NCBI RefSeq assembly: GCF_053078305.1
Contig: NZ_CP166879.1
DNA: 64,000 nt
Strand: one strand, 5' to 3'
Part shown: positions 17,873 through 51,090 of the stretch, piece after piece
Position numbering within the stretch: the first letter of the stretch is position 1
Layout: every line of letters starts with the position of its first letter
Made by a program: the position numbers and the translations under genes
Notes under the pieces: model-generated
What the model saw: the letters and a program-made list of their open reading frames with translations, nothing else
The model's database searches: none
Told to the model about the DNA's origin: nothing

Positions 17873-18589
17873 ATGAAAAAGGCTAAAATACTTTCTGGCG
17901 TATTATTACTGTGCTTTTCGTCCCCATTAATTTCTCAGGCTGCGACACTGGACGTACGTGGTGGATATCGTAGTGGAAGCCACGCCTATGAGACTCGACT
18001 CAAAGTCAGTGAGGGATGGCAAAATGGATGGTGGGCAAGTATGGAAAGTAATACCTGGAATACCATTCATGATAATAAAAAGGAAAATGCCGCACTCAAT
18101 GATGTTCAGGTTGAAGTTAATTACGCGATTAAACTTGATGATCAATGGACGGTGCGCCCGGGAATGTTAACGCATTTTAGCAGCAACGGCACACGCTACG
18201 GACCCTACGTAAAACTGTCCTGGGACGCGACAAAAGATCTTAATTTTGGCATTCGCTATCGTTACGACTGGAAAGCTTACCGACAACAAGACTTATCCGG
18301 TGATATGTCTCGTGATAACGTTCATCGTTGGGATGGATATGTCACTTACCATATTAATAGTGATTTCACCTTCGCATGGCAAACGACGCTATACAGCAAA
18401 CAGAACGATTATCGCTATGCAAACCATAAGAAATGGGCGACGGAAAATGCATTTGTTCTACAATACCATATGACGCCGGATATTACGCCATACATAGAAT
18501 ATGACTACCTTGACCGTCAGGGTGTTTACAACGGCAGAGATAATTTATCGGAAAACAGTTATCGCATTGGTGTGTCATTTAAACTGTAG
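17873..18589 (+). CDS. nanC: N-acetylneuraminic acid outer-membrane channel NanC (KdgM family)
   Basis: Signal peptide plus beta-barrel-like sequence; start at MKKAKILSGV (238 aa). Confidence 0.9.
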   Translation: MKKAKILSGVLLLCFSSPLISQAATLDVRGGYRSGSHAYETRLKVSEGWQNGWWASMESNTWNTIHDNKKENAALNDVQVEVNYAIKLDDQWTVRPGMLTHFSSNGTRYGPYVKLSWDATKDLNFGIRYRYDWKAYRQQDLSGDMSRDNVHRWDGYVTYHINSDFTFAWQTTLYSKQNDYRYANHKKWATENAFVLQYHMTPDITPYIEYDYLDRQGVYNGRDNLSENSYRIGVSFKL

Positions 18590-18609
18590 TAGACAGGAGA
18601 CAGTCACAA

Positions 18610-19715
18610 TGAATAAAACAATAACGGCGCTTGCTATCATGATGGCTTCATTTGCCACAAACGCGTCTGTATTACCGGAAACTCCTGTGCCATTTAAAAG
18701 TGGTACCGGAGCAATTGATAACGACACTGTCTACATTGGTTTAGGTAGCGCAGGTACGGCATGGTACAAGCTGGATACACAGGCCAAAGATAAAAAATGG
18801 ACAGCGTTAGCTGCATTCCCTGGTGGACCAAGAGATCAAGCAACCTCGGCATTTATTGATGGCAATCTGTATGTGTTTGGCGGCATTGGAAAAAATAGCG
18901 AGGGCTTGACTCAGGTATTTAATGACGTACACAAATACAACCCTAAAACCAATAGCTGGGTTAAATTGATGTCGCACGCACCGATGGGCATGGCGGGCCA
19001 TGTGACTTTTGTACACAACGGCAAGGCTTATGTTACTGGCGGTGTTAACCAGAATATCTTCAATGGCTATTTTGAAGATCTCAACGAAGCTGGAAAAGAT
19101 TCAACCGCTGTAGATAAAATCAATGCCTACTATTTTGACAAAAAAGCAGAAGATTATTTCTTCAATAAGTTTCTGTTGTCTTTTGATCCCTCAACACAGC
19201 AATGGAGTTACGCTGGCGAATCGCCCTGGTACGGAACGGCTGGTGCGGCGGTTGTGAATAAAGGTGATAAAACCTGGCTTATTAATGGCGAAGCCAAACC
19301 AGGATTGCGAACGGATGCCGTATTTGAACTTGATTTCACCGGTAATAATTTAAAATGGAATAAGCTTGCTCCCGTCTCATCACCAGATGGCGTCGCTGGC
19401 GGTTTTGCGGGGATAAGCAATGATTCTCTTATATTTGCCGGAGGGGCCGGATTCAAAGGTTCACGAGAAAATTACCAGAACGGTAAGAACTATGCGCATG
19501 AAGGCCTGAAAAAATCATATAGCACTGATATTCATCTTTGGCATAACGGGAAATGGGATAAATCGGGTGAATTATCGCAAGGTCGGGCCTACGGAGTATC
19601 ATTGCCCTGGAATAATAGTCTATTAATTATTGGCGGTGAAACTGCAGGCGGCAAAGCGGTGACGGATTCAGTTTTGATCTCTGTGAAGGATAATAAAGTT
19701 ACAGTACAAAACTAA
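18610..19715 (+). CDS. nanM: N-acetylneuraminate mutarotase NanM (Kelch-repeat)
   Basis: Start at MNKTITALAIMMASFATNA with signal peptide; repeated GG..G Kelch-like motifs. Confidence 0.9.
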
Positions 19716-19779
19716 CGCTTCAGGGCCCCAGTAAAGGGGCCCAGCTATCAATTTGTCATTTCAATTACGCGAAAATTAT

Positions 19780-20760
19780 ATGAACGCAATAATATCGCCC
19801 GATTATTACTATGTTCTTACCGTTGCTGGTCAGTCTAATGCTATGGCGTATGGCGAAGGACTGCCATTACCGGACAGGGAAGATGCGCCTCATCCCAGAA
19901 TTAAACAATTAGCGAGATTTGCGCATACGCATCCCGGAGGCCCGTCATGTCACTTTAACGACATTATTCCACTGACTCACTGCCCACACGATGTTCAGGA
20001 TATGCAGGGTTATCACCATCCTCTGGCAACGAATCATCAAACACAGTACGGCACCGTTGGCCAGGCACTGCATATTGCACGGAAATTACTGCCCTTCATT
20101 CCTGATAATGCAGGGGTTCTCATCGTTCCATGTTGTCGTGGCGGCTCGGCTTTTATCGCAGGCAGCGAAGGGACATATTCAGAACGGCACGGAGCCAGCC
20201 ATGATGCTTGTCGTTGGGGAACGGATACTCCGCTATACCAGGATTTAGTCAGCAGAACGCGAGCCGCACTGGCAAAAAATCCGCAGAACAAATTCCTCGG
20301 CGTATGCTGGATGCAAGGCGAATTTGACTTAATGACCAGTGACTACGCGTCACACCCTCAACACTTTAATCATATGGTTGAAGCCTTTCGTAGGGATCTA
20401 AAACAATACCATTCTCAGCTTAATAATATTACTGATGCGCCCTGGTTTTGCGGCGATACCACCTGGTACTGGAAAGAAAATTTCCCTCATGCGTATGAAG
20501 TTATTTATGGCAATTATCAAAATAATGTTTTAGCCAATATTATTTTCGTCGACTTCCAGCAACAAGGTGAAAGAGGACTGACGAACGCGCCTGATGAAGA
20601 CCCGGACGATTTAAGCACGGGATATTACGGTTCAGCGTACCGGTCACCGGAGAACTGGACGACGGCACTGCGAAGCAGTCATTTCAGCACGGCAGCCCGT
20701 CGGGGGATTATTTCTGACAGGTTTGTAGAAGCAATTTTGCAGTTTTGGCGCGAAAGGTGA
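19780..20760 (+). CDS. nanS: 9-O-acetyl-N-acetylneuraminate esterase NanS
   Basis: Start at MNAIISPDYYYVLTVAGQSNAMAYG (SGNH-like GQSN motif), 326 aa. Confidence 0.88.
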   Translation: MNAIISPDYYYVLTVAGQSNAMAYGEGLPLPDREDAPHPRIKQLARFAHTHPGGPSCHFNDIIPLTHCPHDVQDMQGYHHPLATNHQTQYGTVGQALHIARKLLPFIPDNAGVLIVPCCRGGSAFIAGSEGTYSERHGASHDACRWGTDTPLYQDLVSRTRAALAKNPQNKFLGVCWMQGEFDLMTSDYASHPQHFNHMVEAFRRDLKQYHSQLNNITDAPWFCGDTTWYWKENFPHAYEVIYGNYQNNVLANIIFVDFQQQGERGLTNAPDEDPDDLSTGYYGSAYRSPENWTTALRSSHFSTAARRGIISDRFVEAILQFWRER

Positions 20761-20767
20761 GCGTTCA

Positions 20768-21418
20768 TTAATTTGATTTATTCGCATCCATCAACGCTTT
20801 TAACTCCTCCGGCGTAAACGGTGGTTTGCGTCGGTGCAACATCGCATGGCAATTAGGGCACACAGGAAGTAAATCATTAACTGGATCCAGCAGGTAATCC
20901 TCTTTAATGGCTGAAAGCGGCACCAGGTGATGCATATGGATAAAGCCCTCAGCGATATCGCCATAGATCTTCACCAGATCAACGCCGCATACGTTGCACT
21001 GGCATCCGTGATATTCGACTGCTTTCTCGCGAGCTTTTTTATCGCGTTCATAGCTGTTTACCGTCACCTTTATCGCCGCACCTTCAACGTAGGTCCCCTG
21101 CGACGGCAACTCATCCGGGAACAGAACATCGGCTATGGGAGCCGCAGCGGCTTTATCCTGATGAATATGAAATCCCTGATCTATAAGTAGCTTGACGCAT
21201 TTAGATTTTATTCCGCCGGTGAAATCCGCAGGGGTAAATTGCGTCCCCGTCATCAATGTCGCTGCGATGCCAGCAATCGCCTTCGAGGGGTAACGTCGGC
21301 CATGATATTCAATCTCATACAACCGTGCAGGCTGGAACTGATGAGTTTCTCCCGCATCCCATAAATGAATAGCTTTGATGATATACCGCCGAGGAAGATG
21401 ATCGGGGAGTTTATTCAT
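20768..21418 (-). CDS. HNH endonuclease-domain protein (C-terminal CxxC...HH...CPNCH zinc/HNH motif) with uncharacterized N-terminal domain; possible modification-dependent restriction enzyme
   Basis: C-terminus CQCNVCGVD...HMHHLVPL...CPNCHAMLH read directly; no family assignment verified. Confidence 0.6.
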   Translation of the reverse strand: MNKLPDHLPRRYIIKAIHLWDAGETHQFQPARLYEIEYHGRRYPSKAIAGIAATLMTGTQFTPADFTGGIKSKCVKLLIDQGFHIHQDKAAAAPIADVLFPDELPSQGTYVEGAAIKVTVNSYERDKKAREKAVEYHGCQCNVCGVDLVKIYGDIAEGFIHMHHLVPLSAIKEDYLLDPVNDLLPVCPNCHAMLHRRKPPFTPEELKALMDANKSN

Positions 21419-21497
21419 GGAGAATGTCCTTATACGTTCTCAGAACAAGCAGCAAAAAAACAAATGAGATCAAAGTAATATATCTTCACTTGCAGGC

Positions 21498-22427
21498 TTG
21501 AACAGCAGAAAATTTGCGAGCATGATCGCAATTATTTCACTGCCAGGGATATCAATGGCTTCCAGTAAATCGCTACAGCAGGCAATTGCCAATATAAAAA
21601 TCTGGCATAAGGGTGAACAGCGCGCGCCGCATAAGCCATTGTTATTGCTATACGTATTAGCGGGATACCTGCATGGACATCCGCGCCTTTTCGATTATGG
21701 CTCGGAAATCTACGAACCTCTGCACAGTTTACTGGAACGTTTTGGGCCACAGCGTTCACAGTACCGACCTGATATGCCGTTCTGGCGATTACAAGGCGAC
21801 GGATTCTGGCAATTACACAATGCCGAGCGTTGCTCAACAGCAGGGAGCAGCCGACAACCGCCAGTGAAGGAACTGAACGAATACCACGTTGCAGGCGGTT
21901 TCGATGAACAGCACTACGCCCTGGTAACCGGCAATAAAAAACTCATCAATACTCTGGCGCAACAGATACTCGAAGCGCACTTCACCGAGAGTATTCAGGA
22001 AGAAATTGCTGACGAGCTGGGTTTTGATCTCCAGCAAATCCGTAAACAGCGCGACCCGTTATTTCGCAAAAATGTATTACGCGCTTATAAATACCAGTGC
22101 GCGATATGTGGCTTTAATATGCGCCACGACGACACCACCGTCGCGCTGGAAGCGGCGCATATAAAATGGAAACAGCACGGCGGTCCTTGTGAAATTCCTA
22201 ATGGCCTGGCGCTTTGCGCAATTCACCATAAAGCCTTTGATAAAGGATCGATTGGCCTGGACGAAAATATGCGGGTACTGGTATCAGATGCGGTAAACGG
22301 CGGAGGGATCGTTGAGAGATTATTCTGGGATTTTGACGGGAAAACTATTGCGTTGCCGCAGGTGCGTAAAAATTACCCTTATGAGGGGTTTGTGGAGTGG
22401 CATCGGAAAGAGGTTTTTAGGGGGTGA
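21498..22427 (+). CDS. HNH endonuclease-domain protein with ~180-aa N-terminal putative DNA-recognition domain (predicted restriction endonuclease type)
   Basis: C-terminal CAICGF...HIKWKQHGG...NGLALCAIHHKAFD HNH-like motif; divergent from preceding HNH gene. Confidence 0.6.
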   Translation: MNSRKFASMIAIISLPGISMASSKSLQQAIANIKIWHKGEQRAPHKPLLLLYVLAGYLHGHPRLFDYGSEIYEPLHSLLERFGPQRSQYRPDMPFWRLQGDGFWQLHNAERCSTAGSSRQPPVKELNEYHVAGGFDEQHYALVTGNKKLINTLAQQILEAHFTESIQEEIADELGFDLQQIRKQRDPLFRKNVLRAYKYQCAICGFNMRHDDTTVALEAAHIKWKQHGGPCEIPNGLALCAIHHKAFDKGSIGLDENMRVLVSDAVNGGGIVERLFWDFDGKTIALPQVRKNYPYEGFVEWHRKEVFRG

Positions 22428-22468
22428 GGTTGATAACTATCGCAGTATGTTCAATATTGCTGACATAA

Positions 22469-22651
22469 TCAGTGCAGGATCTTGCCGCTAGTTTACAACT
22501 CGCCTTCGATAGCGGCGCAAAACGAGTTCTGTTGCCGATATCCTCGGCTATGGATATTCCAACAGTTCCGGCAGAGTTGTTTACCAAGTTTCAGGTAAGT
22601 TTTTACTCAGAACCGGTTGATGCGGTTTATAAGGCGCTGGATGTGAATTAA
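22469..22651 (+). pseudogene. Start-less 3' gene fragment encoding a Lon-protease-like C-terminus (...GAKRVLLPISSAMDIPTVPAELF...VDAVYKALDVN*)
   Basis: 60-codon open frame without start, GC-rich island in AT-rich surroundings, resemblance to Lon C-terminal region (GIKxVLIP...) from memory. Confidence 0.35.
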
Positions 22652-23049
22652 CACATTCCTCAGCTTATTTATAAAAGGATTATTCCCATTTGATATAATA
22701 TCAGTGCCAATTTACTTTTTTCAATGGAATATATCTCGGCTAAATAACAATAAAACTTATCGCTAATGGATTAAATAAACAATTTTCTAATTCATTTCAC
22801 CACCTTTGATATAGAAATTGATGGTGTTGTCGCTGCCATTGCTTATGGTGATGATAAAATCCACGTTTCTGGATCGTTGCGTAGAAAATCATCACTACCT
22901 TGATATTTTGATGCGATATGATCATACCGTTCCGTAGTACCAATTTCAATTTCAGGCTAAACCCCAACATTAAAAAAATTAGAGTTATTCACTGATTATA
23001 TTATCAATAATATAATCAGTGAATAACATGGACTATATAATAAATTGCT

Positions 23050-25320
23050 CTAATCATTTCCCTTACGAATATATGGGCCAAAAGCCCAAGAATCATAATA
23101 AGGGTGATGGACTAGTTTTTCATTAAATCGAACACTATAAGTTAATTTTTTTATATTTTTACGTACAGCATTAATACTGGGCAAAGAGGAAAGATAATCT
23201 ATAAACTTATCGATAGTGATTTCCCCTTCGCAACACTCAAACCCATCAATGATATTTTTCGCCATTTTTCCATTTTCATTTGTTTGATATATCACTCCAG
23301 GTATTCGTTGAAAAAAACTAGATAATGCATATTTGTCCGCTACATATGTATCATCCACATGATATTTCCCACCGAGCATAGTTGTAGTAACAATAAGCTT
23401 ATACACACCTTTGGGTTGCCATGTTGATGGTAGTTCGAATTCTTTAATGATCACATCAAGATGATTAAGATAATGTTCAGAAATTCGATTTATTTGTTGA
23501 AAATAAGAACGCATAAATTTATTATTATGATCATGTATTAATGAGCTATCTCCAACGATGTTACACACTTGCTGATAGTACTTACCATAATATATTGGTT
23601 GACCATTTGATTTTAGTTCTGTAAAAATCAAACAATCATCCAGGAGAATCACGCAATCGCACTGATAATTAGCATGAGCATCAATTGGAGAAGCTTTAAT
23701 CCCCGCATCACGAACTTGTTTTATAAATTGTTGCTCATGAAATCGCCCTTTACTTGCTTGAGAAATTTTTTTGGAACCAAATAATGACATTAGAGAGCGA
23801 GTCACTGAGCTATTTGCTATTAATGCAGGCATTAAGCATAAACCGTCCATACAGGGAATAAATGGGCAATCATTAAGATCATGTGATTTTGAATTGAAGG
23901 TAAAATAATCTATCAGTTTTTTTGCTGCATCTGCTGCAATCCCCTTACGTTGAAAGAATGATAACCAACTCTCACGGCTTTTTATGATCAGCCAGCGATC
24001 CAACTGTAGGGGTATAGGTTTTGTCGATGAAAATCTTTTGCTCATTTCTTCTTTAGATAACTCGACTAAACATTGATAAGCGTGCACCCAATTAAATAAT
24101 GATATATTCCCATATTCTTCATGAAGGTCATCAGGAGATATATTTTCCAACTCGCTTAGATGAAATGAGCTAAAAACGCCATCAGAATTTAAGTAAGATG
24201 GCATATGATCCTTTACCCAACTATTTAGATGAAAATGTTTGTTACTAAATTCATGAACTTCGCTATATAGATGTGACGCTCTCATCATTAGTCTATTTCT
24301 TGCAATCTCATAATCTCGGTATAAACAAAAACTATCAACCTCAAGAGAGTAAATGTTATTATCCAATTTTGTAAATACTGCACTACTTAGTCTGAAAAAG
24401 TCTCTTACTCTGCTTAATGAGTCAAAAACATTCCACTCATTAAGGTACCCTCCCATTGAAAGCAAGGTTTGTTTATTCACACAAGAAGTTAGTTTCAATG
24501 GCTCATGAGTCCGTAAATAAGAAAATATTCGTCCGGTGTAATTGGCTACCTCATCAAATGCCCTATCGATAACTCGAAAATATTCGATATCAGGTTCAGC
24601 ATGAATATTAATATTTTCAGAAACGATTACTCTGCTTAATGAGTCAAAAACATTCCACTCATTAAGGTACCCTCCCATTGAAAGCAAGGTTTGTTTATTC
24701 ACACAAGAAGTTAGTTTCAATGGCTCATGAGTCCGTAAATAAGAAAATATTCGTCCGGTGTAATTGGCTACCTCATCAAATGCCCTATCGATAACTCGAA
24801 AATATTCGATATCAGGTTCAGCATGAATATTAATATTTTCAGAAACGATAAATAATGGAAAAATCCTCTTCATTTTTTTAGGATCATTGACCACAACCAA
24901 GGATGATAATGATGATAAAAACATCTCACAAAACATGATGAGATTAAGTATTAATGCATGTGATTTTTTTGTATTTTTACGCCAAATACCAGCACATTTT
25001 GTAGCCGCAAAGAAAGAATTATTTATATCATGCATAATTTTACATTGACTCTCGAACTCAGAAATTAGTTCAATGTTATCAGGAAATGAGTTTACTAGCT
25101 CATTAATACATTTTTTGAATGTATTGTTATACTCAACTTCAGTCTGAACTGAAAATCTATTATAATAGATGGAAGATATTCTCAGCACATCCAAGGCGAT
25201 ATCTATACTAATATCATCTCTTTTTATGTACTCACAAAAAAAAGAACAAAACTGTTTCGGGTCGTTAGCAAGATTACTAATTCTAGTGGTATCATAAACT
25301 TTTTCCATTTTTCCATACAT
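23050..25320 (-). CDS. Hypothetical 756-aa AT-rich orphan protein; C-terminal region has a PD-(D/E)xK-like motif (CDCVILLDD...FTELK)
   Basis: Long uninterrupted ORF, low GC, no recognisable family; nuclease motif is inference only. Confidence 0.6.
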   Translation of the reverse strand: MYGKMEKVYDTTRISNLANDPKQFCSFFCEYIKRDDISIDIALDVLRISSIYYNRFSVQTEVEYNNTFKKCINELVNSFPDNIELISEFESQCKIMHDINNSFFAATKCAGIWRKNTKKSHALILNLIMFCEMFLSSLSSLVVVNDPKKMKRIFPLFIVSENINIHAEPDIEYFRVIDRAFDEVANYTGRIFSYLRTHEPLKLTSCVNKQTLLSMGGYLNEWNVFDSLSRVIVSENINIHAEPDIEYFRVIDRAFDEVANYTGRIFSYLRTHEPLKLTSCVNKQTLLSMGGYLNEWNVFDSLSRVRDFFRLSSAVFTKLDNNIYSLEVDSFCLYRDYEIARNRLMMRASHLYSEVHEFSNKHFHLNSWVKDHMPSYLNSDGVFSSFHLSELENISPDDLHEEYGNISLFNWVHAYQCLVELSKEEMSKRFSSTKPIPLQLDRWLIIKSRESWLSFFQRKGIAADAAKKLIDYFTFNSKSHDLNDCPFIPCMDGLCLMPALIANSSVTRSLMSLFGSKKISQASKGRFHEQQFIKQVRDAGIKASPIDAHANYQCDCVILLDDCLIFTELKSNGQPIYYGKYYQQVCNIVGDSSLIHDHNNKFMRSYFQQINRISEHYLNHLDVIIKEFELPSTWQPKGVYKLIVTTTMLGGKYHVDDTYVADKYALSSFFQRIPGVIYQTNENGKMAKNIIDGFECCEGEITIDKFIDYLSSLPSINAVRKNIKKLTYSVRFNEKLVHHPYYDSWAFGPYIRKGND
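24406..24849. repeat. Perfect tandem duplication of a 222-bp unit (2 copies) inside the 756-aa ORF, in frame (74-aa duplication)
   Basis: Identical DNA blocks beginning tactctgcttaatgagtcaaaaacattcc at 24406 and 24628; protein repeat VIVSENINIHAEPDIEYFRV... x2. Confidence 0.9.
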
Positions 25321-25996
25321 CCTATTGTCTAAATTACTATAAAACTAGCCACTTAACTAATAATTATAAATTTCATCTTTTACACCTTGCATTTTTATAA
25401 CCAATGAAATCTACAACAAGCAACTGATGGATAATCCGATATTGGTCGCATTTAATGGCATGGTAGCAAAGTTTTCATCACATACCTCCTTTGCACCAGA
25501 ATAAACGCCAGAGATCTGAAATTGCGAGTACACTACAGAAATTGTACTGCTGGTCCCATCAGCATAAAACCATAGTTACACAGGTAATCATCATTATTCG
25601 CCAAGATAATAAATATTATTCGGTAGAATAGCGTTCTCAGGTGGTCAGTAAAATTGTCTTCAACAAGATGTCTGCGCATCTCGTCTGCTAGCCCTACATA
25701 ACTGCTCTCGACCGAAACTATTTATTGAATGTTCACCAAGGTGGGCGTGGAGACAAAATGACGTCTTTTGATATTAGCTACCTGAGCCACATGGTCAAAA
25801 CGTTCAAGTAGCATAGCGAAACCACCCTGCCCACGTAATGTGGACGATGCAGCTTCCAGCCAGAGCAAACTTGGGACCATCGACTACAAAATGAAGAATA
25901 CTGAACTGCTTTTCTGGCAGGCCTATATACTGCACGGATATGGGTGATTTCAGACACAAAAAAAGCCGCCCTTGAGCGACTCGATTTGCATACGGT

Positions 25997-26020
25997 GTGG
26001 TGCGAAGGCCGGACTCGAAC
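25997..26020. repeat. Direct repeat of leuX 3' end (attachment-site repeat) marking the distal boundary of the P4-like element
   Basis: tggtgcgaaggccggactcgaac matches leuX 3' end tggtgccgaaggccggactcgaac (38719-38742) at 23/24. Confidence 0.8.
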
Positions 26021-26285
26021 ATTTAATTAAACAACTGTATTTAAATAGTTTTTGTATTTAAAAATGAATTGATGCCCCTTTTTGTGCCCCCATTACCAAA
26101 ATAACAACCTAACCTTGTACTAAAAAAGAGATTTTTCAATGTAGGCACTCTGGTTCGGCTACGCTTACCGGAGACGAACCTGAACATAAGAAATCTGAGA
26201 TAACTTCATAGTAATCATCTTTAACACTTTTGACCAATAATATCTATCATAAAGGCAGAGAAATTAATCTCTGCCTTTATTAAGG

Positions 26286-27154
26286 TCACATAAAAAGATT
26301 ATTAATTAGAGTACACTGTTGACATCCATTAATATCTACAGCTTTTAAAAAATCTGTGTTACTAATCAAAACAGCATTACTAACACCTGAAAACTGCAGC
26401 TGTGCATACATACCTAAGATAGATTTTTTTTCGTAATACTGAGATCTTCCTGTATAACTTTCACCAGTATTAGAACTTATAAATCGCCTCGTTCTTTCTT
26501 GTATCAATAAATTATTTTTAAGGAAGCTCAAAATATCTTGCTGCAATTGTTTGTTTTTGTTATGAAAATAACATAACAATTGATCCTCTAAGGTACCAAG
26601 CTGAGTGTTAACGTCATGAAAAATATACCCCCCCATTCACTCCCATTAAACTCAATAATACTTCCATTGGAGAGTTGAGTAGTATCTTCTAAACCTATCT
26701 CATTTTTAATCTCTGTTATTCTGGCATCAATGCCAAGTTCATCAGCATCAAAAAAATATAAAAATCTATATGCAATTTCTATACTGAAGTCATCTGTACC
26801 AGAAAGTTCTTTATACATAGTGACTAACTCAGCCCTTTCACGACTTCTGCCATCACCATTTAGATTATGTATAAAAATTAAGTTCCCGTTATGATAGAAA
26901 CAAACAGAAGGTAGTTTTGGCCCGTTTGGCTGAAAGCCAAGTTTTTTATCTGGAATTCTTACTTGACTTAGTTCTTTTTCAAAGCGTTTATCAAACGGTG
27001 GAGGTAATTGACCAATTTTAAGATCTTGAAGTTGGAATCCATTAACTAAAAGAATTCTGCTAAGAAAAGCGACGTCATGCTGTCCTTCACAAAAGGCAAC
27101 TATGACTCTATTATAAGATACACTCACAATTTTAGCCTCTAATATCAAGATCAA
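26286..27154 (-). CDS. Toprim-like (OLD/DUF4435-like) putative nuclease partner, split into two overlapping frames (188 aa + 116 aa) by a frameshift at a G7 homopolymer (26628-26634)
   Basis: Candidate Toprim acidic residues (CEGQHD ... FFDADE); the two frames join if the run were G8; start ambiguous (TTG at 27154 or GTG at 27127 preceded by GAGG). Confidence 0.5.
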
Positions 27155-29369
27155 TATTTTTTATCAAATAGCCAAATCTTTCGCCATCAGCCCTTTTCAC
27201 TACTACTTTATCGTCAACTTTGCTTAACTGAAATCCAGTAATGCAATCATTATTATAATCATTATTTAAAAAAGCTCTGATACATTCACCCGAATGTGAC
27301 GTAAGGAACACTTGCACATTGAAACGTTCTGCAAGTTGTTGCGTAAATTTAGTAAACTCCAATAGTAAACTATAATGAATCGCAGTTTCAAATTCATCAA
27401 TAAAAAGTACACCGTTACGACATGCAGCAAAAGATAAAGCTATATAAAAGATGCGCTGAATACCCTCTCCATAAGAAGTAAGATCGAAACTTCTGTTAAA
27501 ATCATATGCTGATTCTACGATAAACCTTTTGAGCTCCATGTCTTCAGTAAATCTGACATCTTTTATCGTTGGCTCAATTTTATTCATGAATTCAATAACA
27601 AGGCCGATAGCGGATTGTATATTTAAATCATCTGATTCTGAGTCAGTTACAGACGTTAAATTTGCACCTATACTTTTGTTATAATCAGTGAGCAAATCGT
27701 CTATATCGTAGAAATAAGGGCTTTTAAATGACGATGAACACAAATGCGAAACTTGATCAGCGTTCCTTCTCATACGTTCATGGATAAAAGTATGGACTGT
27801 GTTATTTCTAAATTCTCCATCAATGCTAGACTTTAAGCTATAAGATGCTATATAGTCATCTTGTTTATCAATTGAAGAATCATCATATTTAATCATTTCA
27901 ACAGTAACATTACTATCATCAAATACTCCTGACAAGATTATTTTATCTTGGAAAAGAGCATTTAGCAATGTTGGACTCAAAGTACTGATTTTATTTTTTT
28001 GCCTAATAAGATTAAAATGCGATGAAATATCATTACGCTGCGTCAATAAGTAAATTGCTTCAAGCAATGAAGTTTTTCCAGCATTATTAAAGCCAGCAAT
28101 GATATTAATCTTATTGAAATTATCCAATGAGAAGTTTTTAAAGAATTTATATTTTTTGATATAAATGGATTTAAAATGTTTTTTTACTCCATACTCAAAA
28201 TTAGTTGTATAGTTTCCTCCTTCGATATTTATAGCCATCTGCTTTGGCATTATTTGTGTTAGTTTTTCTTTTGCATCATCTAATAAGCGCAAATCCTCTT
28301 GGTTTATGAGGCTACTATATAGATTTAAATCCTTTAAGGCGTCTTCAAGCTTGCTTAAAGCATTTTTATAGTTTTGCTGATTTACTGAACCGCTCGCAGC
28401 TAATCCTCTTGCAAGGCTACGTTCATCCTCCATTACCTTCAAGGCTTTTTCATTATTGATGAACAAAGCAAGATCTCGTATCTCAAGAGATTTAGTAATT
28501 ATAGGTTCTAGCTCAACGTATTCACCATTACTTTCCTCTTCAATATCATCTTCTAGCTCATTTTTCTCAAGGTATTCATCTGTTTTAGAGATCCACGAAA
28601 AAAGCCTATCAAGATTCACTAAATTTCTAGCATAATAACCGTTATCACTCCAGTCTAACCAAGATTTAATTACAGGCTTTTTGATTATTTCTTCAAAAAT
28701 ACCAAACATACTTGGTTCGAATTGCTCACCATACTCACTTGTTTTATATAAGGAAATTAGATTATAAACTCTAAGCATAGAGCGAAGACGCGTTTTAGAA
28801 ATACCGAGCGAACTAACTAGCTCATCTTCTTTTTCAACATACTCATCTCGAGTTTTGTCTTCATATGGTTTTAAAAAATCATAAAGCAGTTTGGACTGAT
28901 TATATGTTGACCACTTTTTATTACCACTTATATGCTTTAATCCCATTACAATCAGATGTTTTTCAACATCTTGATTATTATGGATTTCGAAAGGAACACT
29001 TCTAAAAATAGATGGATCTAGTTTTCCAATATCAAACCCCTTTTCATATGCTTCTTGCAATGCTTTCAGCGCCGTTACACGACGATTTCCCTCAAGGACT
29101 AAATAATTGTTATCTCCTAAATCCTTTACTTGAATAACATCAACATCTAAGTATCCATTAGATTTAAAACTTGCTATTAGATCTTTGATATTCTCTTGTC
29201 TATTTCCTTCTATAAAAAAGCGAGTCCTACGCTGAATTGTTGGATCTAGCATGTCCTTTTCTGAGACTGGCTTGTGCTGGTCATTGTCAACAAAACGGTA
29301 GTTATTAGGATCTAGAAATAAATTTTTTAAATTTTTGCTAATGCGCGGGCGAATTTGCTCGACATTCAT
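27132..29369 (-). CDS. ParB/Srx-like N-terminal domain fused to ABC-type (AAA_15/21, OLD/AriA-like) ATPase; putative anti-phage defence ATPase
   Basis: N-terminal LVLEGNRRVTALKAL (ParB GxRR-like); C-terminal Walker A GFNNAGKTS, signature-like SYGEG, Walker B VLFIDEFE, H-loop TSHS; GAGGTGA RBS before ATG. Confidence 0.65.
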   Translation of the reverse strand: MNVEQIRPRISKNLKNLFLDPNNYRFVDNDQHKPVSEKDMLDPTIQRRTRFFIEGNRQENIKDLIASFKSNGYLDVDVIQVKDLGDNNYLVLEGNRRVTALKALQEAYEKGFDIGKLDPSIFRSVPFEIHNNQDVEKHLIVMGLKHISGNKKWSTYNQSKLLYDFLKPYEDKTRDEYVEKEDELVSSLGISKTRLRSMLRVYNLISLYKTSEYGEQFEPSMFGIFEEIIKKPVIKSWLDWSDNGYYARNLVNLDRLFSWISKTDEYLEKNELEDDIEEESNGEYVELEPIITKSLEIRDLALFINNEKALKVMEDERSLARGLAASGSVNQQNYKNALSKLEDALKDLNLYSSLINQEDLRLLDDAKEKLTQIMPKQMAINIEGGNYTTNFEYGVKKHFKSIYIKKYKFFKNFSLDNFNKINIIAGFNNAGKTSLLEAIYLLTQRNDISSHFNLIRQKNKISTLSPTLLNALFQDKIILSGVFDDSNVTVEMIKYDDSSIDKQDDYIASYSLKSSIDGEFRNNTVHTFIHERMRRNADQVSHLCSSSFKSPYFYDIDDLLTDYNKSIGANLTSVTDSESDDLNIQSAIGLVIEFMNKIEPTIKDVRFTEDMELKRFIVESAYDFNRSFDLTSYGEGIQRIFYIALSFAACRNGVLFIDEFETAIHYSLLLEFTKFTQQLAERFNVQVFLTSHSGECIRAFLNNDYNNDCITGFQLSKVDDKVVVKRADGERFGYLIKNIDLDIRG

Positions 29370-29634
29370 ATGTCACCTCAATGGTGTAGGAACTATACAA
29401 TGCAACTTTACTTGATACCTCAGCAATCAACAACTTCATGTTTTTGAAACTAAGCGCGCGCAGCCCCGCACGCCTGCCCGCTTCGCTTAACAGACTGGTT
29501 TTCATGCACCTCATAAATCGTCTCAGAAGCCACCAAACAAGGGTTTTCTCGTCAAAAATGGTGCATAAGACTCATGCGTTTTCATGCGCCATAGACATGC
29601 ACTCATTCGCTCTCATGCCAGCCAGGAAAAGGGG

Positions 29635-29662
29635 ATAAAAAATCCCGGTACTGGACCGGGAT
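29635..29662 (-). terminator. Rho-independent terminator after the delta/Ogr gene
   Basis: Stem atcccggt-loop-accgggat followed by T-run on the minus strand. Confidence 0.55.
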
Positions 29663-29682
29663 TACGTGGGCGTTCTTTCTAA

Positions 29683-29964
29683 TCAGACAGGAATCTGCTG
29701 ACGGCTTGACAGTTTTGACGCGGAGCCATAGCGATTAAGTGTTTGCTGTTGTTTTTCCGGGGATTGTGCTTTGTCTGATAGCTGTTCATTGCGTCGGGGT
29801 TTCATGATTATCTTATCCACACTCTCCAGTGCCGTAAATGTGCAGGAACATTCCAGATTCTGGCACTGATACCACGAGCGTTTAACTGACGGAGCTTCAT
29901 AGGCTGCTGTTCTGGCGTGTGCAACTGTACCGCATTCCGGACATTTAAGTGCCATTAATATCAC
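29683..29964 (-). CDS. Ogr/Delta-family zinc-finger late-gene activator
   Basis: MALKCPECGTVAHARTAAYEA...WYQCQNLECSCTF matches the Ogr C4 zinc-finger pattern. Confidence 0.8.
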   Translation of the reverse strand: MILMALKCPECGTVAHARTAAYEAPSVKRSWYQCQNLECSCTFTALESVDKIIMKPRRNEQLSDKAQSPEKQQQTLNRYGSASKLSSRQQIPV

Positions 29965-30512
29965 TCCTGTATATCGTTAATGTCATTCAGGCGTTGCTGA
30001 AAACGCAGATGTTGTGCCGGGGTGTAAGAGCCCTGGCAATCACGAATCATCCCGGGGTCAGGCATCAAACCGGATTCATCCAGGATCTCACGATAATCCC
30101 CGGCAATTTCAGGCGGTGTTATTGTCAGCTGGCGAACCAGAGCACTGCGTAATATACGGGACGCAACGTCAACCCCTCCGCGCCCCTTCAGGAACGGAGC
30201 CAGTGCAGATGTCAGGGCTGCCCCATTCGCCTGCATAAAATTGCTGAGAGCGGCTTCTGTGCAGGCTTCCATCAGTAAATGCTGCGAGTAAATGCATTCG
30301 CGCGCAGCACAGTTAATTTGCCATTTCAGCACATCCAGACGTTCCCGCAGTAATTCGAGCTGTCGGGCATAATCTGCTGGTTTTTCTGTGGCAGCGAGGA
30401 GAGATGCTATCTGTTGTTCAACGGCTTTTCGGCTCTCACTATGTCCGGCCCACAGAATACGGGCATTCCGAAAACTGGTAAGTGCCTGGTCAGGCGTGCC
30501 TCGGGCCGTCAT
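29961..30512 (-). CDS. P4-like late-operon protein (tentatively Psu-like)
   Basis: 183-aa helical protein in late operon between Sid-like and delta genes; assignment by size and position only. Confidence 0.4.
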   Translation of the reverse strand: MTARGTPDQALTSFRNARILWAGHSESRKAVEQQIASLLAATEKPADYARQLELLRERLDVLKWQINCAARECIYSQHLLMEACTEAALSNFMQANGAALTSALAPFLKGRGGVDVASRILRSALVRQLTITPPEIAGDYREILDESGLMPDPGMIRDCQGSYTPAQHLRFQQRLNDINDIQE

Positions 30513-31252
30513 ACTGCTTTCTCCTTCTCAGCAAGTTCCTGACGAACCTTAATTTTATGCATAGCTGCCGGAGAGAGTTGATTACTGAAATCCAGACGCG
30601 CCGCATAATCCGGGGCAATTCCCGCCAGTTTAAACACCGGGTCCTGTTCAGGCATCGCATCGTTAGCCAGAGCCGGTCTGGTGATATGTTTATGAATAAA
30701 GTCTTTCAGCACTGTGTCCGGGTCATTAACTGAATTCACCACACCCACAACGGCACTGGCTTCCCGGCCCATTGTGGATTTAAGCAGGCTCAGCGTCTGA
30801 ATAAGCGCTTTTCCATGCGATTGCATAAAATCTTCCCAGATTTGTTTTGCGCGAATATCCACAAGAATGTTATGCGCGTGGATATACTTTCCGGCTAATT
30901 CCGCAGCTTTCTGCGGCAAAAGTGCATTTTCGCTTTCCTGAGCCGCCAGCAGCTCATCAAAATCCTCAAGCGTTTCTCGTCCCAGCGCAATTTCCGTGCG
31001 CAGTTTTTTCATTTCCTTTGAAACCACGCCCTGACTTTCACGAAACAGCGTGCGCCACTCCTCATTCAGTGTGTTCGTCGTGGCTTCCATCTCAGCGCGA
31101 CGCTGGCGGATTGTCGCAATATTATCCGCTGCCGCTTTCTGCTGACGACGTGCTTCAAGCCATGCGTTTCTGGCTGTGTTCATGGTTTCCAGTGCCCGCT
31201 GCGTTACAGCCGGAAAAGTGGAAAGGTTGTTATTCACTGCGGTGTTGTTCAT
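30509..31252 (-). CDS. P4-like late-operon protein (tentatively Sid-like capsid size-determination scaffold)
   Basis: 247-aa helical/coiled-coil-like protein, first gene of late operon; assignment by size and position only. Confidence 0.4.
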   Translation of the reverse strand: MNNTAVNNNLSTFPAVTQRALETMNTARNAWLEARRQQKAAADNIATIRQRRAEMEATTNTLNEEWRTLFRESQGVVSKEMKKLRTEIALGRETLEDFDELLAAQESENALLPQKAAELAGKYIHAHNILVDIRAKQIWEDFMQSHGKALIQTLSLLKSTMGREASAVVGVVNSVNDPDTVLKDFIHKHITRPALANDAMPEQDPVFKLAGIAPDYAARLDFSNQLSPAAMHKIKVRQELAEKEKAV

Positions 31253-31430
31253 GGCTTCTCCTGTCGGGTTGGTTCGTTACGTCAATTGTGTCGTGGCTGA
31301 CACAAGCACACTATCGGTGCTCAGTGTGTGGTGGCTGGCACAACGGGCGCTTGCGGTTATTCAGACGTGGCTATGAAAGCCAGCCAGATAAAAATGCCCT
31401 CAGTTTCAGTCTGCTTTATGTCCCTGATGC

Positions 31431-31618
31431 GGTGGAACAGGTGAAACATGTGTTACAGCTTTGTTTTATAAAGCACTTATATACACTGCACCGGTGGAAC
31501 ATCGCGGGTAACAAGGTGGAACAGCGGATTGGCTGGCGTTACATCTGTTCCACCTCACTATTTCAGAAGGTGGAACAGGTTCAGCCCTGTAAAATACGGT
31601 TGTTCCACCTGTTTCACC
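31431..31618. repeat. Iteron array (GGTGGAACA / TGTTCCACC, at least 7 copies in both orientations); probable P4-type ori/crr alpha-binding sites
   Basis: Repeats read directly downstream of the alpha gene; resemble the P4 TGTTCACC iteron. Confidence 0.6.
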
Positions 31619-31652
31619 TGTTACCCTTAATAAATAAGACTCACGCAAAGCC

Positions 31653-34325
31653 TTAACCCGGCACCTCGCTGTTGAAGACATAGAGCCTGCGGGGATTCAT
31701 CTCTGGCGGGCGAATGGTTGTCTGGAGTTTGCCATCAGTGGAGGGCAGCAGGTATCCACGATCTGCGCACAGACGAGCCACCTTGCGCGGGTCAAATCCC
31801 CTGCAGATTTCTTTCCAGCCGGACGGCATGACATAGAACGTAGTGACAGCTTCCGTGCCCTGCGCGGTACTGCCTTTCTCCACCCTGCGCCAGCCCACCA
31901 TATTGCCGGGGCGGTTGCGCTCGTCATACCAGTCTGCAAAGCGGCTGTACTGATTCGCGGTAAAGAAACTGCGAACCTGCTCCAGTGCGGCAATATCTTC
32001 CTGATTGGCGGTGTGCCCGCGATCTTTCAGCCATGCGTTCAGGCAGACGCGGGTTGCCCGCAGTGCTTCACCCTCAGGCCAGCCGGTGATACCCAGACGG
32101 GTTGCCAGTTCACCCGCCATCGCCACCAGTGCAAAGCGATTCACAGCCCGGCCCACCTGGTTGCCTGCATCTTTCGGAGTCAGGGCGGCAGCATATTCCT
32201 TCATCAGCGATTTTGCCTGTGCCGTTAGTCCGTTAAGATCAGCGGTCAGTGCTTTCAGCCACTCCCGGAACGGCGAACCGTAGTAGCAGGACGTGGCCCA
32301 TTCAAGATGCTCTGCCAGAGCCTTGCCGCTGTCGAAGCCGTGCAGCTCCTCAAAAACGCCAAACTTCCCGGAATCGCTGGGGATCTGGATCATCCTGACT
32401 TCCATCCCGGCAAAAGTACGCTCACCGGCCTTTGCCGCATGTTCGGTCAGAGATAACTCGCCAGTTGAAAAGAACAACAGGCGCCACTGCTTACGGGTAC
32501 GCAGCTCACCGTCCGTACCGGCACGACCCTTGCCCTGACCGTTTGCCAGCATGTAGGCGATACTGCCTGCCTCGCGTCCGTCAACTTCCCGGATCTCATC
32601 AAGCATCATGGCGGCATCGTTGCGGCGGCTGGCGCATCCCTCCAGCGCGTTGCCGGTGGCCCGCCATGTCTGCCAGTAGTCAGGCCCGCCGCAGACGGAG
32701 GTTGCCGCTTTCATGGTGGTGGTCTTACCGTCTGTCGATTCCCCTTTGAGGTGGTAGCCGCCGCCGTCCATACCAACCAGCCGTAACAGTGGTGCAGCAA
32801 AGGCCAGGCTGACAGCAAATGCCACGCGGGAGTTGCCGGTACAGTAGCGGGATACGTTCTCCCGCCATTCCTCTGTTGTACCCGACACGCGGAAATCACG
32901 CCCCTGCACGGAAGTGGTCTGGAGAATGACACCCTCTGCACCTTCACCGCTGACCTCATCCTGCAGGACGTAAACCTGACCATGCCAGCCAGTACGGCTG
33001 ACGCAGGTCACGCGGCGTTCCGGTTTACACAGTGAGATATATTCCATCAGGCGTGCGCGTGCCTCACCGGTGGTGCTGATATAAGACAGCCCGTTAACCA
33101 GCAGTACCCGGCGCAGTTCCTCACCACTGCCGCTCAGCATTTCCATCGGCATCGCCCAGCGGCGACGCTCACCCCATGTATCTTCCCATTCCAGCAGTCG
33201 TCCGAAGTTACCGCCATCGGCATCGCAGGTGATTGCCGTAACGCGCAGCGGGCTGCATATTTTGACGTTCTGGATCTCCGTCTCACCGTTGCGCTGTACC
33301 TGCTTTTCATACCAGAGATATTCCTGGGTAAGACGGAACCCGTGCGGCAGTTGCGTGCGGCCTTCCCCGCACAGTACCAGACCGTTGCGAAAGACTTCAC
33401 GGGCACGGGTAATACCGTGCTCCCGATGAAAGTCATTCCAGTCAGCCTTAATCTCTCCTGGTGGCAGCGTCATCCAGCCGCCAACAGCTTTTGCCGCCCG
33501 TTCAGCAAAGGCTCTGCCGGGATTCTCCCCCCCGTCCTGAAAATCGTTATCACCGGCGATGATAATTTTTACCTCAGGCCAGCGTGCCCGCAGCGACTGC
33601 GCCACATTGGGCAGGTTGCCCGCAGATATGGCAGCCACTACGCATCCGGCAGTGAGCTGGCTTACCGTCAGCGCCGTAGCGTAACCTTCGGTAATCACCA
33701 CCTGTACCGGTGGTTCAGACGGTAACGGGCTGAGCGACACAAACGCGCCTTTCATCGTGCTGCCGGGCAGTATGCTTTTTTCACCCGTCGGGGCGATAAG
33801 CTGTGCACCGGTCACGGCTCCGGTGTTGGTCGTGAGTGGTAACAGCAGAGAACCGGCAGGAAAATCCTTACCGCTGATATGCTGCACGCTTCCGGTCAGA
33901 GAGGCTGGGTATCCGGCGAACCCTTTTCCTGTCAGATAGGCGCTTTCTCCCGTGTGGCTCTCTTTCATCAGCGCCGCCACGGTAAGACCCATGTCGCGTT
34001 TAGGGGCTTTTTGTCTGGCAGGCTTAACAGGCAGTTCCTGCACATCCGGCACATTAAGCATCTGCGCCACCTCCTGCGCAGCCTTTCTGACGCTGTAACC
34101 GGTTACGAGCTTAACCAGATCCAGACCGTCACCATTGCCACACTGGCTGCAGATCCACGTCCCGCGCCCGTCAAGGTCATCAAGGCGAAAACGATCCTTG
34201 CCCCCACATTTCGGGCAGGGACCGTGCCTGCCGTTTTCAGGTACATCAATACGCAGCATCTGCAGAATAACGGGCCATTTCCCCCGCGCGGCGGCTGAAA
34301 TCTGCGTAACCGTCTGTATTGTCAT
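31653..34325 (-). CDS. P4 alpha-like primase/helicase replication protein
   Basis: 890 aa; N-terminal Cys-rich zinc-binding region (CPKCGG...CSQCGN), ATP-binding GESTDGKTT motif. Confidence 0.8.
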   Translation of the reverse strand: MTIQTVTQISAAARGKWPVILQMLRIDVPENGRHGPCPKCGGKDRFRLDDLDGRGTWICSQCGNGDGLDLVKLVTGYSVRKAAQEVAQMLNVPDVQELPVKPARQKAPKRDMGLTVAALMKESHTGESAYLTGKGFAGYPASLTGSVQHISGKDFPAGSLLLPLTTNTGAVTGAQLIAPTGEKSILPGSTMKGAFVSLSPLPSEPPVQVVITEGYATALTVSQLTAGCVVAAISAGNLPNVAQSLRARWPEVKIIIAGDNDFQDGGENPGRAFAERAAKAVGGWMTLPPGEIKADWNDFHREHGITRAREVFRNGLVLCGEGRTQLPHGFRLTQEYLWYEKQVQRNGETEIQNVKICSPLRVTAITCDADGGNFGRLLEWEDTWGERRRWAMPMEMLSGSGEELRRVLLVNGLSYISTTGEARARLMEYISLCKPERRVTCVSRTGWHGQVYVLQDEVSGEGAEGVILQTTSVQGRDFRVSGTTEEWRENVSRYCTGNSRVAFAVSLAFAAPLLRLVGMDGGGYHLKGESTDGKTTTMKAATSVCGGPDYWQTWRATGNALEGCASRRNDAAMMLDEIREVDGREAGSIAYMLANGQGKGRAGTDGELRTRKQWRLLFFSTGELSLTEHAAKAGERTFAGMEVRMIQIPSDSGKFGVFEELHGFDSGKALAEHLEWATSCYYGSPFREWLKALTADLNGLTAQAKSLMKEYAAALTPKDAGNQVGRAVNRFALVAMAGELATRLGITGWPEGEALRATRVCLNAWLKDRGHTANQEDIAALEQVRSFFTANQYSRFADWYDERNRPGNMVGWRRVEKGSTAQGTEAVTTFYVMPSGWKEICRGFDPRKVARLCADRGYLLPSTDGKLQTTIRPPEMNPRRLYVFNSEVPG

Positions 34326-34986: not shown

Positions 34987-35017
34987 CGTGAATTACTCCG
35001 TTTTCAGCGGTATTTTG

Positions 35018-35713: not shown

Positions 35714-35733
35714 TAACGCGAGGAGATCCAGTA

Positions 35734-37261: not shown

Positions 37262-37290
37262 TTAAATCTCTCCGCAGCCCCCAATGGTAA

Positions 37291-50768: not shown

Positions 50769-50774
50769 TTGCGT

Positions 50775-51090
<316 letters not shown>

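What the first reader, a model, noticed from the sequence alone, without database searches (positions are those of the whole stretch)
24406..24849. Perfect in-frame 222-bp tandem duplication inside the 756-aa gene
Two identical 222-bp copies lie head-to-tail, duplicating a 74-aa segment (VIVSENINIHAEPDIEYFRV...DSLSR). Perfect identity implies a very recent duplication or ongoing expansion/contraction by recombination. It could modulate the protein, or be an assembly artefact.
Basis: seen in the sequence. Interest (0 to 1): 0.5.

Follow-up and report, generated by a model that had tools for sequence, protein, structure and literature searches.

The report
Private in-frame duplication in nuclease gene
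One E. coli genome carries a perfect, in-frame, back-to-back copy of 222 bases inside an uncharacterised defence-island nuclease gene; every other genome examined has a single copy, so it is an ordinary very recent mutation (or, less likely, an assembly error) and not a special genetic device.

Summary
Window 24406-24627 and 24628-24849 are identical 222-nt copies lying head-to-tail. They are codon-aligned on the minus strand inside the 756-aa ORF (23050-25320) and duplicate aa 158-231 as aa 232-305.

The duplication is private to this genome:
- 334 of 5,426 complete E. coli genomes carry the gene, and all 30 listed hits have one copy.
- A junction-only probe finds nothing in E. coli genomes, GTDB representatives or metagenomes.
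- All homologs retrieved are single-copy length.
- With one copy removed, the gene matches the strain ETEC6335 allele at 2049/2049 nt.
- The duplicated protein is on record once (WP_447309353.1, a 5.94-Mb contig).

The gene encodes an unstudied ~680-aa stand-alone NERD-like PD-(D/E)xK nuclease (invariant D-x13-E-x-K). It sits in the leuX defence island, just outside a P4-like satellite.

AlphaFold keeps the native fold and extrudes exactly 74 residues from the most indel-tolerant loop of the N-terminal helical domain. The nuclease core is untouched.

Most likely this is a recent illegitimate-recombination duplication (1-nt microhomology) with a neutral or attenuating effect. It is not a copy-number-variable locus. 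An assembly artefact cannot be excluded without reads. Interest is low.

The parts
23050..25320 (-). 756-aa ORF (752 aa from the PGAP start). It encodes an uncharacterised stand-alone NERD-like PD-(D/E)xK nuclease; the normal form is 678/682 aa.
   Evidence: ORF. Single-copy orthologs are annotated 'hypothetical protein', WP_000416998.1. Family alignment. Fold.
24628..24849 (-). Copy 1 of the 222-nt unit (promoter-proximal), encoding aa 158-231.
24406..24627 (-). Copy 2 of the 222-nt unit, encoding aa 232-305. It is 100% identical to copy 1.
24604..24651 (.). Novel junction (end of unit joined to start of unit, 1-nt T microhomology at 24627). This 48-mer was used as a diagnostic probe.
   Evidence: No match in 5,426 complete E. 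coli genomes, GTDB representative genomes or JGI metagenome contigs.
23611..23658 (-). Catalytic PD-(D/E)xK motif: D555...E568-x-K570 in the 756-aa numbering, equal to D481/E494/K496 in single-copy numbering. It is untouched by the duplication.
   Evidence: Invariant columns in 64-sequence alignments A1 and A2. Nucleotide coordinates were calculated from the ORF start.
24413..24444 (.). Hairpin-forming quasi-palindrome CTTAATGAGT-N12-ACTCATTAAG, starting 7-8 nt inside the low-coordinate border of the unit (and repeated at 24635-24666). A possible replication pause or template-switch site.
   Evidence: I1. DNA fold -7.5 kcal/mol, z = -4.4. The other border has no significant structure.
22984..23027 (-). 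Perfect 21+21-nt inverted repeat about 25 nt downstream of the stop codon, followed by a T-run on the coding strand. Probably the gene's terminator.
   Evidence: I2. DNA fold -17.3 kcal/mol, z = -9.2.

Best explanation
This is a real, very recent tandem duplication that is private to one strain. It arose in the sequenced E. coli lineage or clone by illegitimate (RecA-independent) recombination or replication template switching between sister strands, using only 1 nt of microhomology.

It inserts 74 in-frame residues into the N-terminal all-helical domain of an uncharacterised ~680-aa stand-alone nuclease, whose C-terminal region is a NERD-like PD-(D/E)xK domain. The gene sits in the leuX defence island.

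A tandem duplication is equivalent to an insertion at any register within the unit. The protein can therefore keep its native fold and loop out 74 residues at the surface loop around aa 154-170. The expected effect ranges from neutral to attenuating for the presumed sensing or regulatory domain, with the catalytic core intact.

The allele is not a programmed or population-level variable repeat. Two perfect 222-bp copies should collapse back to one by homologous recombination at a low rate.

Shown: existence, in-frame structure, privacy, recency, and fold and motif of the protein. Inferred: mechanism of origin, tolerance by the fold, defence role, instability.
For: - Perfect 2 x 222 nt, codon-aligned, ORF intact.
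- Only a 1-nt shared base at the borders.
- 334 of 5,426 complete E. coli genomes carry the gene at >=80% coverage. All 30 listed hits span 2047-2049 bp, i.e. 2271 - 222.
- The junction probe gives no match in E. coli genomes, GTDB representatives or metagenomes.
- The collapsed gene has 0/2049 differences from the ETEC6335 allele.
- The exact 752-aa duplicated protein is on record once, on one 5.94-Mb contig.
- Homologs retrieved are nearly all 600-733 aa (the longest, P0073, looks like a fusion); none shows the duplication.
- Assembly quality looks good: only three 1-nt indels, all intergenic, in 20.7 kb versus a 99.1%-identical genome. There is no other long perfect tandem repeat in the window. 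The repeat lies more than 24 kb from either window end.
- In the AF2 model of the duplicated form, only aa 170-243 (exactly 74 aa) fall below pLDDT 50 and the rest stays native. The block aa 161-180 is the most gap-rich and variable of the N-domain across the family.
Against: - No reads are available, so the duplication rests on one assembly.
- One border (24849/24850) lies in a ~65-bp AT-rich zone where three fetched draft contigs of this gene end at 24814, 24850 and 24879. This is a place where a finishing or merging error could occur.
- AlphaFold is not a reliable predictor of whether an insertion is tolerated.
- The protein's function has never been tested. PADLOC, Pfam, NCBIfam and PDB sequence searches are all negative for this protein.
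Confidence: 0.65

Rival explanations
1. Assembly or finishing artefact. Two contigs, or contig ends, that overlapped by 222 bp were joined end-to-end without trimming, or a consensus or polishing error was made. That would create a perfect tandem duplication absent from the real genome.
For: - Perfect identity and exact head-to-tail arrangement are what an untrimmed overlap gives.
- The allele is seen in a single record and nowhere else.
- Draft assemblies often break inside this AT-rich gene, with partial proteins starting at aa 148-170. Three fetched contigs end at 24814, 24850 and 24879. One of them ends 1 nt from the duplication border. The zone has 27.7% GC.
Against: - The source contig is 5.94 Mb, so long reads that span 444 bp were almost certainly used. 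Long-read consensus assemblers do not concatenate overlaps.
- Typical untrimmed overlaps are k-mer sized (127 bp or less) or kilobases long, not 222 bp (my knowledge, not tested here).
- The flanking 20.7 kb shows no sign of indel-type errors in genes.
- No other such repeat occurs in the window.
- An artefact would hit a multiple of three with an intact ORF only one time in three by chance. This is weak evidence.
Confidence: 0.25
2. Functional, selected allele. The duplication acts as a reversible switch that can collapse through RecA, or as a specificity change. It remodels the N-terminal sensor or regulatory domain of a stand-alone defence nuclease, for example to silence a toxic or incompatible nuclease after acquisition of the neighbouring P4-like satellite or its helper, or to alter what the protein senses.
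For: - The frame and the catalytic core are preserved.
- The insertion maps to the non-catalytic helical domain.
- The gene lies in a defence island directly next to a P4-like satellite. The combination of this gene and this satellite is not found together at 80% or more coverage in any complete E. coli genome.
- In other single-protein PD-(D/E)xK defence nucleases such as Upx, non-catalytic domains regulate the nuclease (PMC13099982).
Against: - There is no recurrence, no copy-number polymorphism and no second lineage with it.
- An in-frame outcome is expected one time in three by chance.
- No experimental data exist for this family.
- Nothing in the sequence, such as flanking recombination sites or long border repeats, suggests a programmed mechanism.
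Confidence: 0.07

Closest known systems
Spontaneous short-junction tandem duplications in enterobacteria (RecA-independent formation, RecA-dependent loss; literature of Roth, Andersson and Lovett, cited from my own knowledge)
   Same: Head-to-tail perfect copies. The junction has 0 to a few nt of microhomology (here 1 nt). The event is private to one clone. No mobile element or long repeat lies at the borders.
   Different: Most studied cases are kilobases to hundreds of kilobases long and raise gene dosage. This one is 222 bp, lies within a gene and is in-frame, so it changes a protein rather than a copy number.
Contingency loci and VNTR-type intragenic repeats (phase or antigenic variation through repeat copy number)
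   Same: An in-frame tandem repeat inside a gene that could in principle gain or lose units by recombination.
   Different: No copy-number polymorphism exists among hundreds of carriers. There are only two copies, the unit is long (222 nt), and the unit is part of a folded helical domain rather than a repeat module. For contrast, the YjgL hexapeptide array in the same window (59076-59379) has the tandem-array architecture typical of such repeats.
NERD-domain nucleases (Pfam PF08378), including the stand-alone multidomain RNA-phage defence effector ZwsA of P. aeruginosa (bioRxiv 10.64898/2026.04.06.716636)
   Same: A single large protein with a helical N-terminal region, a NERD-type PD-(D/E)xK core and a C-terminal extension. 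The catalytic spacing D-x13-E-x-K is the same: D567/E580/K582 in ZwsA versus D481/E494/K496 here. UniProt names the homologs 'NERD domain-containing protein'. The context is a defence island.
   Different: The Pfam NERD model does not hit this protein. Only 2 of 64 relatives hit at E<=0.001 and 10 at E<=0.1. Homology and RNA targeting are therefore untested.
Upx, a single-protein dual PD-(D/E)xK anti-phage nuclease (PDB 9wuf; PMC13099982)
   Different: 11% identity; 1212 versus 682 aa. No sequence-level relationship was detected, and there is no evidence here for a second nuclease site. This is a resemblance in architecture, not membership.
FokI / R.BspD6I-type cleavage domains of type IIS restriction enzymes
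   Different: There is no recognisable DNA-recognition domain of those enzymes, no adjacent methyltransferase in E. coli and no sequence similarity.

Membership tests
PD-(D/E)xK nuclease superfamily | Catalytic motif D ... (D/E)-x-K on the core beta-strands | tested here: met
   D481, E494 and K496 are invariant in 64 diverse relatives; consensus EYECDxxFxLDxDLFFxECK.
PD-(D/E)xK nuclease superfamily | Restriction-endonuclease-like alpha/beta fold | tested here: met
PD-(D/E)xK nuclease superfamily | Metal-dependent nuclease activity | not testable with these tools
   Requires biochemistry.
NERD domain (Pfam PF08378) | Significant match to the family HMM | tested here: inconclusive
   No hit for this protein even at E<=10. 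Among relatives, 2 of 64 hit at E<=0.001 and 10 of 64 at E<=0.1. UniProt labels homologs as NERD.
Known or candidate anti-phage systems in PADLOC-DB v2 | Match to a system's protein model | tested here: not met
   No family at E<=0.001. Only weak local hits of relatives to nuclease cores of PDC-M29B and CARF_PDDEXK.
Variable-number tandem repeat / contingency locus | Copy number differs among isolates | tested here: not met
   All 30 listed carriers of 334 have one copy, and the junction is absent from all 5,426 genomes. One record has two copies. None has three.
Variable-number tandem repeat / contingency locus | The unit is a self-contained repeat module tolerated in variable numbers | tested here: not met
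   The unit starts in a loop and ends inside helix 216-237 of a compact helical domain.
Short-junction spontaneous tandem duplication | Head-to-tail copies whose junction shows no or minimal microhomology and no mobile element | tested here: met
   1-nt overlap (T) at the borders. No flanking repeat of 12 nt or more at the borders.
Short-junction spontaneous tandem duplication | Physically present in the genome (supported by reads) | not testable with these tools
   No reads are available. Indirect indicators of assembly quality are good.
ZwsA (Zowangsin) RNA-phage defence nuclease | Sequence homology to ZwsA and RNA endonuclease activity | not testable with these tools
   The preprint gives no accession. 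No retrieved relative has E535/D567/E580/K582.
P4-like satellite cargo (defence hotspot gene) | Located between the satellite's att repeats | tested here: not met
   The 18-nt att repeat is at 26003-26020 and 38724-38741. The gene (23050-25320) lies outside it, and the flank is collinear with the satellite-free strain ETEC6335 up to about 26003.

The most novel reading that the evidence does not exclude
The duplication is a selected, RecA-reversible 'insertional switch' in the sensor or regulatory domain of a previously unstudied stand-alone NERD-type defence nuclease. It would turn the nuclease off, or retune what it senses. That could let the strain tolerate the P4-like satellite (or another mobile element) next door while keeping a one-step route back to the active single-copy allele.
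Probability: 0.05. Interest if true: 0.55.

Novelty: new member of a known kind. Interest (0 to 1): 0.15.

Why it matters
As a mutation it matters little. It is one more spontaneous tandem duplication, seen in one genome, with no sign of recurrence or programmed variation.

Its modest value is twofold. First, it flags a site to check in the source assembly (WP_447309353.1). Second, it draws attention to the gene it hit. That gene belongs to a widespread family (about 226 clusters at 50% identity, from Enterobacteria to Firmicutes) of experimentally uncharacterised ~680-aa stand-alone NERD-like nucleases. In E. coli it occupies a variable slot of the leuX defence island, beside a phosphorothioate-dependent HNH restriction enzyme and a P4-like satellite.

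If the allele is real, it is a ready-made natural insertion mutant of the N-terminal domain that could be compared with the wild type in phage-defence assays.

Tried and rejected
- Junction 48-mer scans of complete E. coli genomes, GTDB representative genomes and metagenome contigs all came back empty.
- The look-up of encoding contigs for the 752-aa protein found nothing on record, so the source assembly and its method could not be identified.
- Pfam, NCBIfam, PADLOC, PHROGs and PDB sequence searches on the protein gave nothing significant. PHROGs gave only marginal hits to families of unknown function.
- The profile search of the 5.8-billion-protein collection with alignment A1 returned only the same close relatives. 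It did not reach a Pseudomonas ZwsA-like member.
- A test for ZwsA residue numbering among 253 retrieved proteins found none.
- Conserved partner gene: the 324-aa and 325-aa genes upstream of two distant homologs are unrelated to each other, and neighbourhoods differ. I treat the protein as stand-alone.
- Second-carrier hypothesis: draft contig L007 ends 1 nt from the duplication border, which is the shape a greedy assembler would give for a real duplication. However, its allele differs at 6 aa. Other contigs end 30-36 nt to either side. Exact look-ups of the expected partner fragments (aa 5-231 and so on) found nothing. I rejected this as unsupported, though the test has low power.
- Hairpin-driven origin: only one border has a significant hairpin, so this stays a weak suggestion.
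- Gene as P4 satellite cargo: rejected from the att-repeat positions.

Full report
**1. The observation**

Tandem Repeats Finder reports a single array at 24405-24849 with period 222, 2.0 copies, 100% matches, no indels and score 890. The repeat finder reports the same pair, and a direct string comparison of 24406-24627 with 24628-24849 is identical.

The array lies on the coding (minus) strand of the only long ORF there, 23050-25320, 756 aa. The unit is 74 codons and is codon-aligned, so aa 158-231 (IVSENINIH...DSLSRV) are repeated as aa 232-305.

Identity extends 1 nt beyond the unit, because the same T occurs at 24405, 24627 and 24849. The junction therefore carries a 1-nt microhomology and nothing longer. 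It is the only long perfect direct repeat in the 64-kb window.

**2. Is it shared with other genomes?**

- The gene is present at 80% coverage or more in 334 of 5,426 complete E. coli genomes. Every one of the 30 best records spans 2047-2049 bp against the 2271-bp query, which is the query minus 222.
- A 48-nt probe centred on the junction has arms too short to seed megablast unless the junction exists. It finds nothing in those genomes, in one genome per GTDB species or in JGI metagenome contigs.
- With one copy removed, the gene is identical at all 2049 positions to the allele of strain ETEC6335. The duplication is therefore the only change relative to a circulating allele.
- Among 90 clusters of close protein relatives, lengths are 678/682 aa or shorter partials, apart from one 733-aa apparent fusion (P0073).
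- A filter-free search of 1.84 billion representatives finds 226 related clusters. Full-length members are mostly 600-700 aa, at most 732 aa, and none contains the duplication.
- The exact 752-aa duplicated protein (PGAP start) is on record once: WP_447309353.1 / YBJ02285.1, E. coli, on one contig of 5,941,328 bp.

The allele is private to one assembly and must be very young.

**3. Context**

The window is E. coli chromosome, running from fim through nan to the leuX island and then idn, lpt, pepA and valS. The order is:

| Feature | Window coordinates | Source |
|---|---|---|
| nanC, nanM, nanS | upstream of the island | |
| HNH endonuclease | 20768-21418 | |
| Phosphorothioated-DNA-binding HNH restriction endonuclease | 21498-22427 | annotation of the orthologous region, |
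| The 756-aa gene | 23050-25320 | |
| P4-like satellite | 26003-38741 | |

The P4-like satellite is bounded by an 18-nt repeat of the leuX 3' end at 26003-26020 and 38724-38741. It carries:
- an integrase next to tRNA-Leu(CAA) at 38718-38802;
- an alpha-type primase and two psu-like genes;
- the candidate defence pair PDC-M38A/B.

The window is collinear with the satellite-free strain ETEC6335 up to about 26003, with only two mismatches after the gene. The gene therefore lies just outside the satellite, in the older leuX-flanking islet. In strain fS58a the same slot holds a different 'PDDEXK family nuclease', so this is a variable defence-gene slot. The gene has 33% G+C against 46.6% for the window.

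**4. What the gene encodes**

No Pfam, NCBIfam, PADLOC or PDB sequence match exists for the protein itself.

An alignment of 64 diverse relatives (A1) has six invariant columns. Three of them, D481, E494 and K496 (single-copy numbering), sit in the consensus EYECDxxFxLDxDLFFxECK. That is a PD-(D/E)xK nuclease motif. Individual relatives give weak hits to NERD, Mrr_cat, Card1 endonuclease and Hjc, all of which are PD-(D/E)xK families.

AlphaFold2 with this alignment gives a confident model (pLDDT 91.9, pTM 0.91). It has an all-helical N-terminal region to about aa 320, a mixed middle region, the nuclease core at about aa 465-600 and a beta-rich tail.

Neighbourhoods of distant members share no partner gene:
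- one sits beside a type I R-M system;
- one lies in an integrase / KAP-NTPase / Mrr island;
- one is solitary.

I conclude that this is a stand-alone NERD-like nuclease, probably a defence effector. That last step is inferred from context and from analogy with single-protein PD-(D/E)xK systems such as Upx (PMC13099982) and the NERD-domain RNA-phage effector ZwsA. ZwsA's catalytic residues D567/E580/K582 have the same D-x13-E-x-K spacing (bioRxiv 10.64898/2026.04.06.716636). Homology to ZwsA could not be tested because no sequence was available.

**5. Where the duplication falls in the protein**

In the single-copy model the unit (aa 158-231) comprises:
- the end of a long loop (aa 154-170);
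- helix 171-195;
- a loop;
- helix 209-214;
- the first 16 residues of helix 216-237.

Read literally, one border cuts a helix. But a tandem duplication is equivalent to an insertion at any register within the unit. The AF2 model of the 756-aa form keeps the whole native fold at high confidence and leaves exactly 74 residues (aa 170-243) below pLDDT 50. These emerge from the 154-170 loop.

In the family alignment, the block aa 161-180 is the most gap-rich (0.21) and most variable (entropy 3.41) of the N-terminal domain. This is where the family itself tolerates insertions and deletions.

The nuclease motif lies 250 residues downstream and is unchanged. The likely effect therefore ranges from neutral to attenuating or retuning of the N-terminal domain. 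This is inference, because AlphaFold does not predict stability.

**6. How it arose and what will happen to it**

A 1-nt junction with no flanking repeat fits RecA-independent illegitimate recombination or template switching, as described for short-junction duplications in enterobacteria (my knowledge). A 10-bp-stem hairpin (24413-24444, -7.5 kcal/mol, z -4.4) starts 7-8 nt inside one border and might have paused replication. The other border has no significant structure, so this is only a suggestion.

Two perfect 222-bp copies exceed the minimal length for RecA-dependent recombination in E. coli, so collapse to one copy is expected at a low frequency (my knowledge, not tested). There is no evidence of expansion: no third copy is seen anywhere.

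**7. The artefact question**

Evidence for a real event:
- The source contig is 5.94 Mb, which implies long reads that span 444 bp.
- 20.7 kb of flanking core genome differs from a 99.1%-identical genome by only three 1-nt indels, all intergenic.
- No other such repeat occurs in the window.
- The site is more than 24 kb from either window end.

Evidence for an artefact:
- The allele rests on one record.
- Many draft assemblies break inside this gene. Partial proteins start at aa 148, 150, 151, 158, 161 and 170.
- Three fetched contigs end at positions equivalent to 24879, 24850 and 24814. This is a ~65-bp AT-rich zone (27.7% GC) that contains the duplication border at 24849/24850.
- Joining two contigs that overlap by 222 bp would produce exactly this structure.

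I also asked whether the contig ending 1 nt from the border (L007) might come from a second carrier. A greedy assembler would split a real duplication into N-flank+unit and unit+C-flank. However, its allele differs at six residues, and the expected partner fragments are not on record (low power). Diffuse coverage dropout is the simpler reading.

I put the artefact at about 0.25.

**8. Verdict**

- 'Recent duplication' is supported.
- 'Ongoing expansion/contraction' is not supported.
- 'Artefact' remains open.

The event is an ordinary kind of mutation in one genome. The more interesting object is the uncharacterised nuclease family it hit. Interest is low (0.15).

Noticed in passing
window 26286-27154 (homopolymer at about 26628-26634): The PDC-M38B gene of the P4-like satellite's defence pair is split into two ORFs (26588-27154 and 26286-26636). 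The cause is a C7 run where strain fS58a has C8 and an intact 280-aa protein. This is either a real frameshift that inactivates the candidate system or a homopolymer sequencing error.
   Followed up: partly
window 26003-38741: A P4-like satellite of about 12.7 kb is integrated at leuX. It is bounded by an 18-nt direct repeat (26003-26020 and 38724-38741). It carries an integrase (37291-38574), an alpha-type TOPRIM/DUF927 primase (31653-34325), two psu-like genes (29961-31252) and the candidate defence pair PDC-M38A (27132-29369, PADLOC E = 0) and PDC-M38B.
   Followed up: partly
window 20768-22427: Two divergently oriented HNH nucleases sit next to the gene. One is an HNH endonuclease (20768-21418). 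The other is annotated in orthologous regions as a phosphorothioated-DNA-binding restriction endonuclease (21498-22427; SBD + HNH). I saw no dnd or ssp modification genes in the stretch of the window I examined (ORFs 16000-41000 and annotated flanks).
   Followed up: no
L002 9955-10953 (E. coli fS58a) versus window 23050-25320: In strain fS58a the same slot, between the SBD-HNH gene and the P4-like satellite, holds a different 332-aa 'PDDEXK family nuclease'. The position therefore behaves as an exchangeable nuclease slot.
   Followed up: no
window 22984-23027: A perfect 21+21-nt inverted repeat (2-nt spacer; -17.3 kcal/mol, z -9.2) lies just downstream of the gene's stop codon. It is probably a terminator. 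Several fetched draft contigs also end right next to it (23040-23066).
   Followed up: partly
window 24814-24879 and 23040-23066; loci L007-L009: Public draft assemblies frequently break inside this gene, leaving 1.1-1.6-kb contigs made only of gene sequence (clusters with 5-772 members). The likely causes are AT-rich coverage dropout and the palindrome.
   Followed up: partly
window 59076-59379 (ORF 58054-59934, minus strand): An 18-nt unit repeated about 17 times (88-92% matches) encodes a LNN-x-Q-K/E hexapeptide array inside the 626-aa yjgL-region ORF. It has the tandem-array architecture typical of variable-number intragenic repeats, in contrast to the 222-bp duplication.
   Followed up: no
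window 50771-51069 and 2900-2939: REP/BIME-type extragenic palindromic repeats: a 96-nt unit x 3.1 at 93% matches, with a related 40-nt copy at 2900-2939.
   Followed up: no
window 18000-32000: No complete E. coli genome in the collection covers more than 71% of this 14-kb stretch in one place. The combination of this nuclease gene with this P4-like satellite therefore appears unique to the source strain within that collection.
   Followed up: partly
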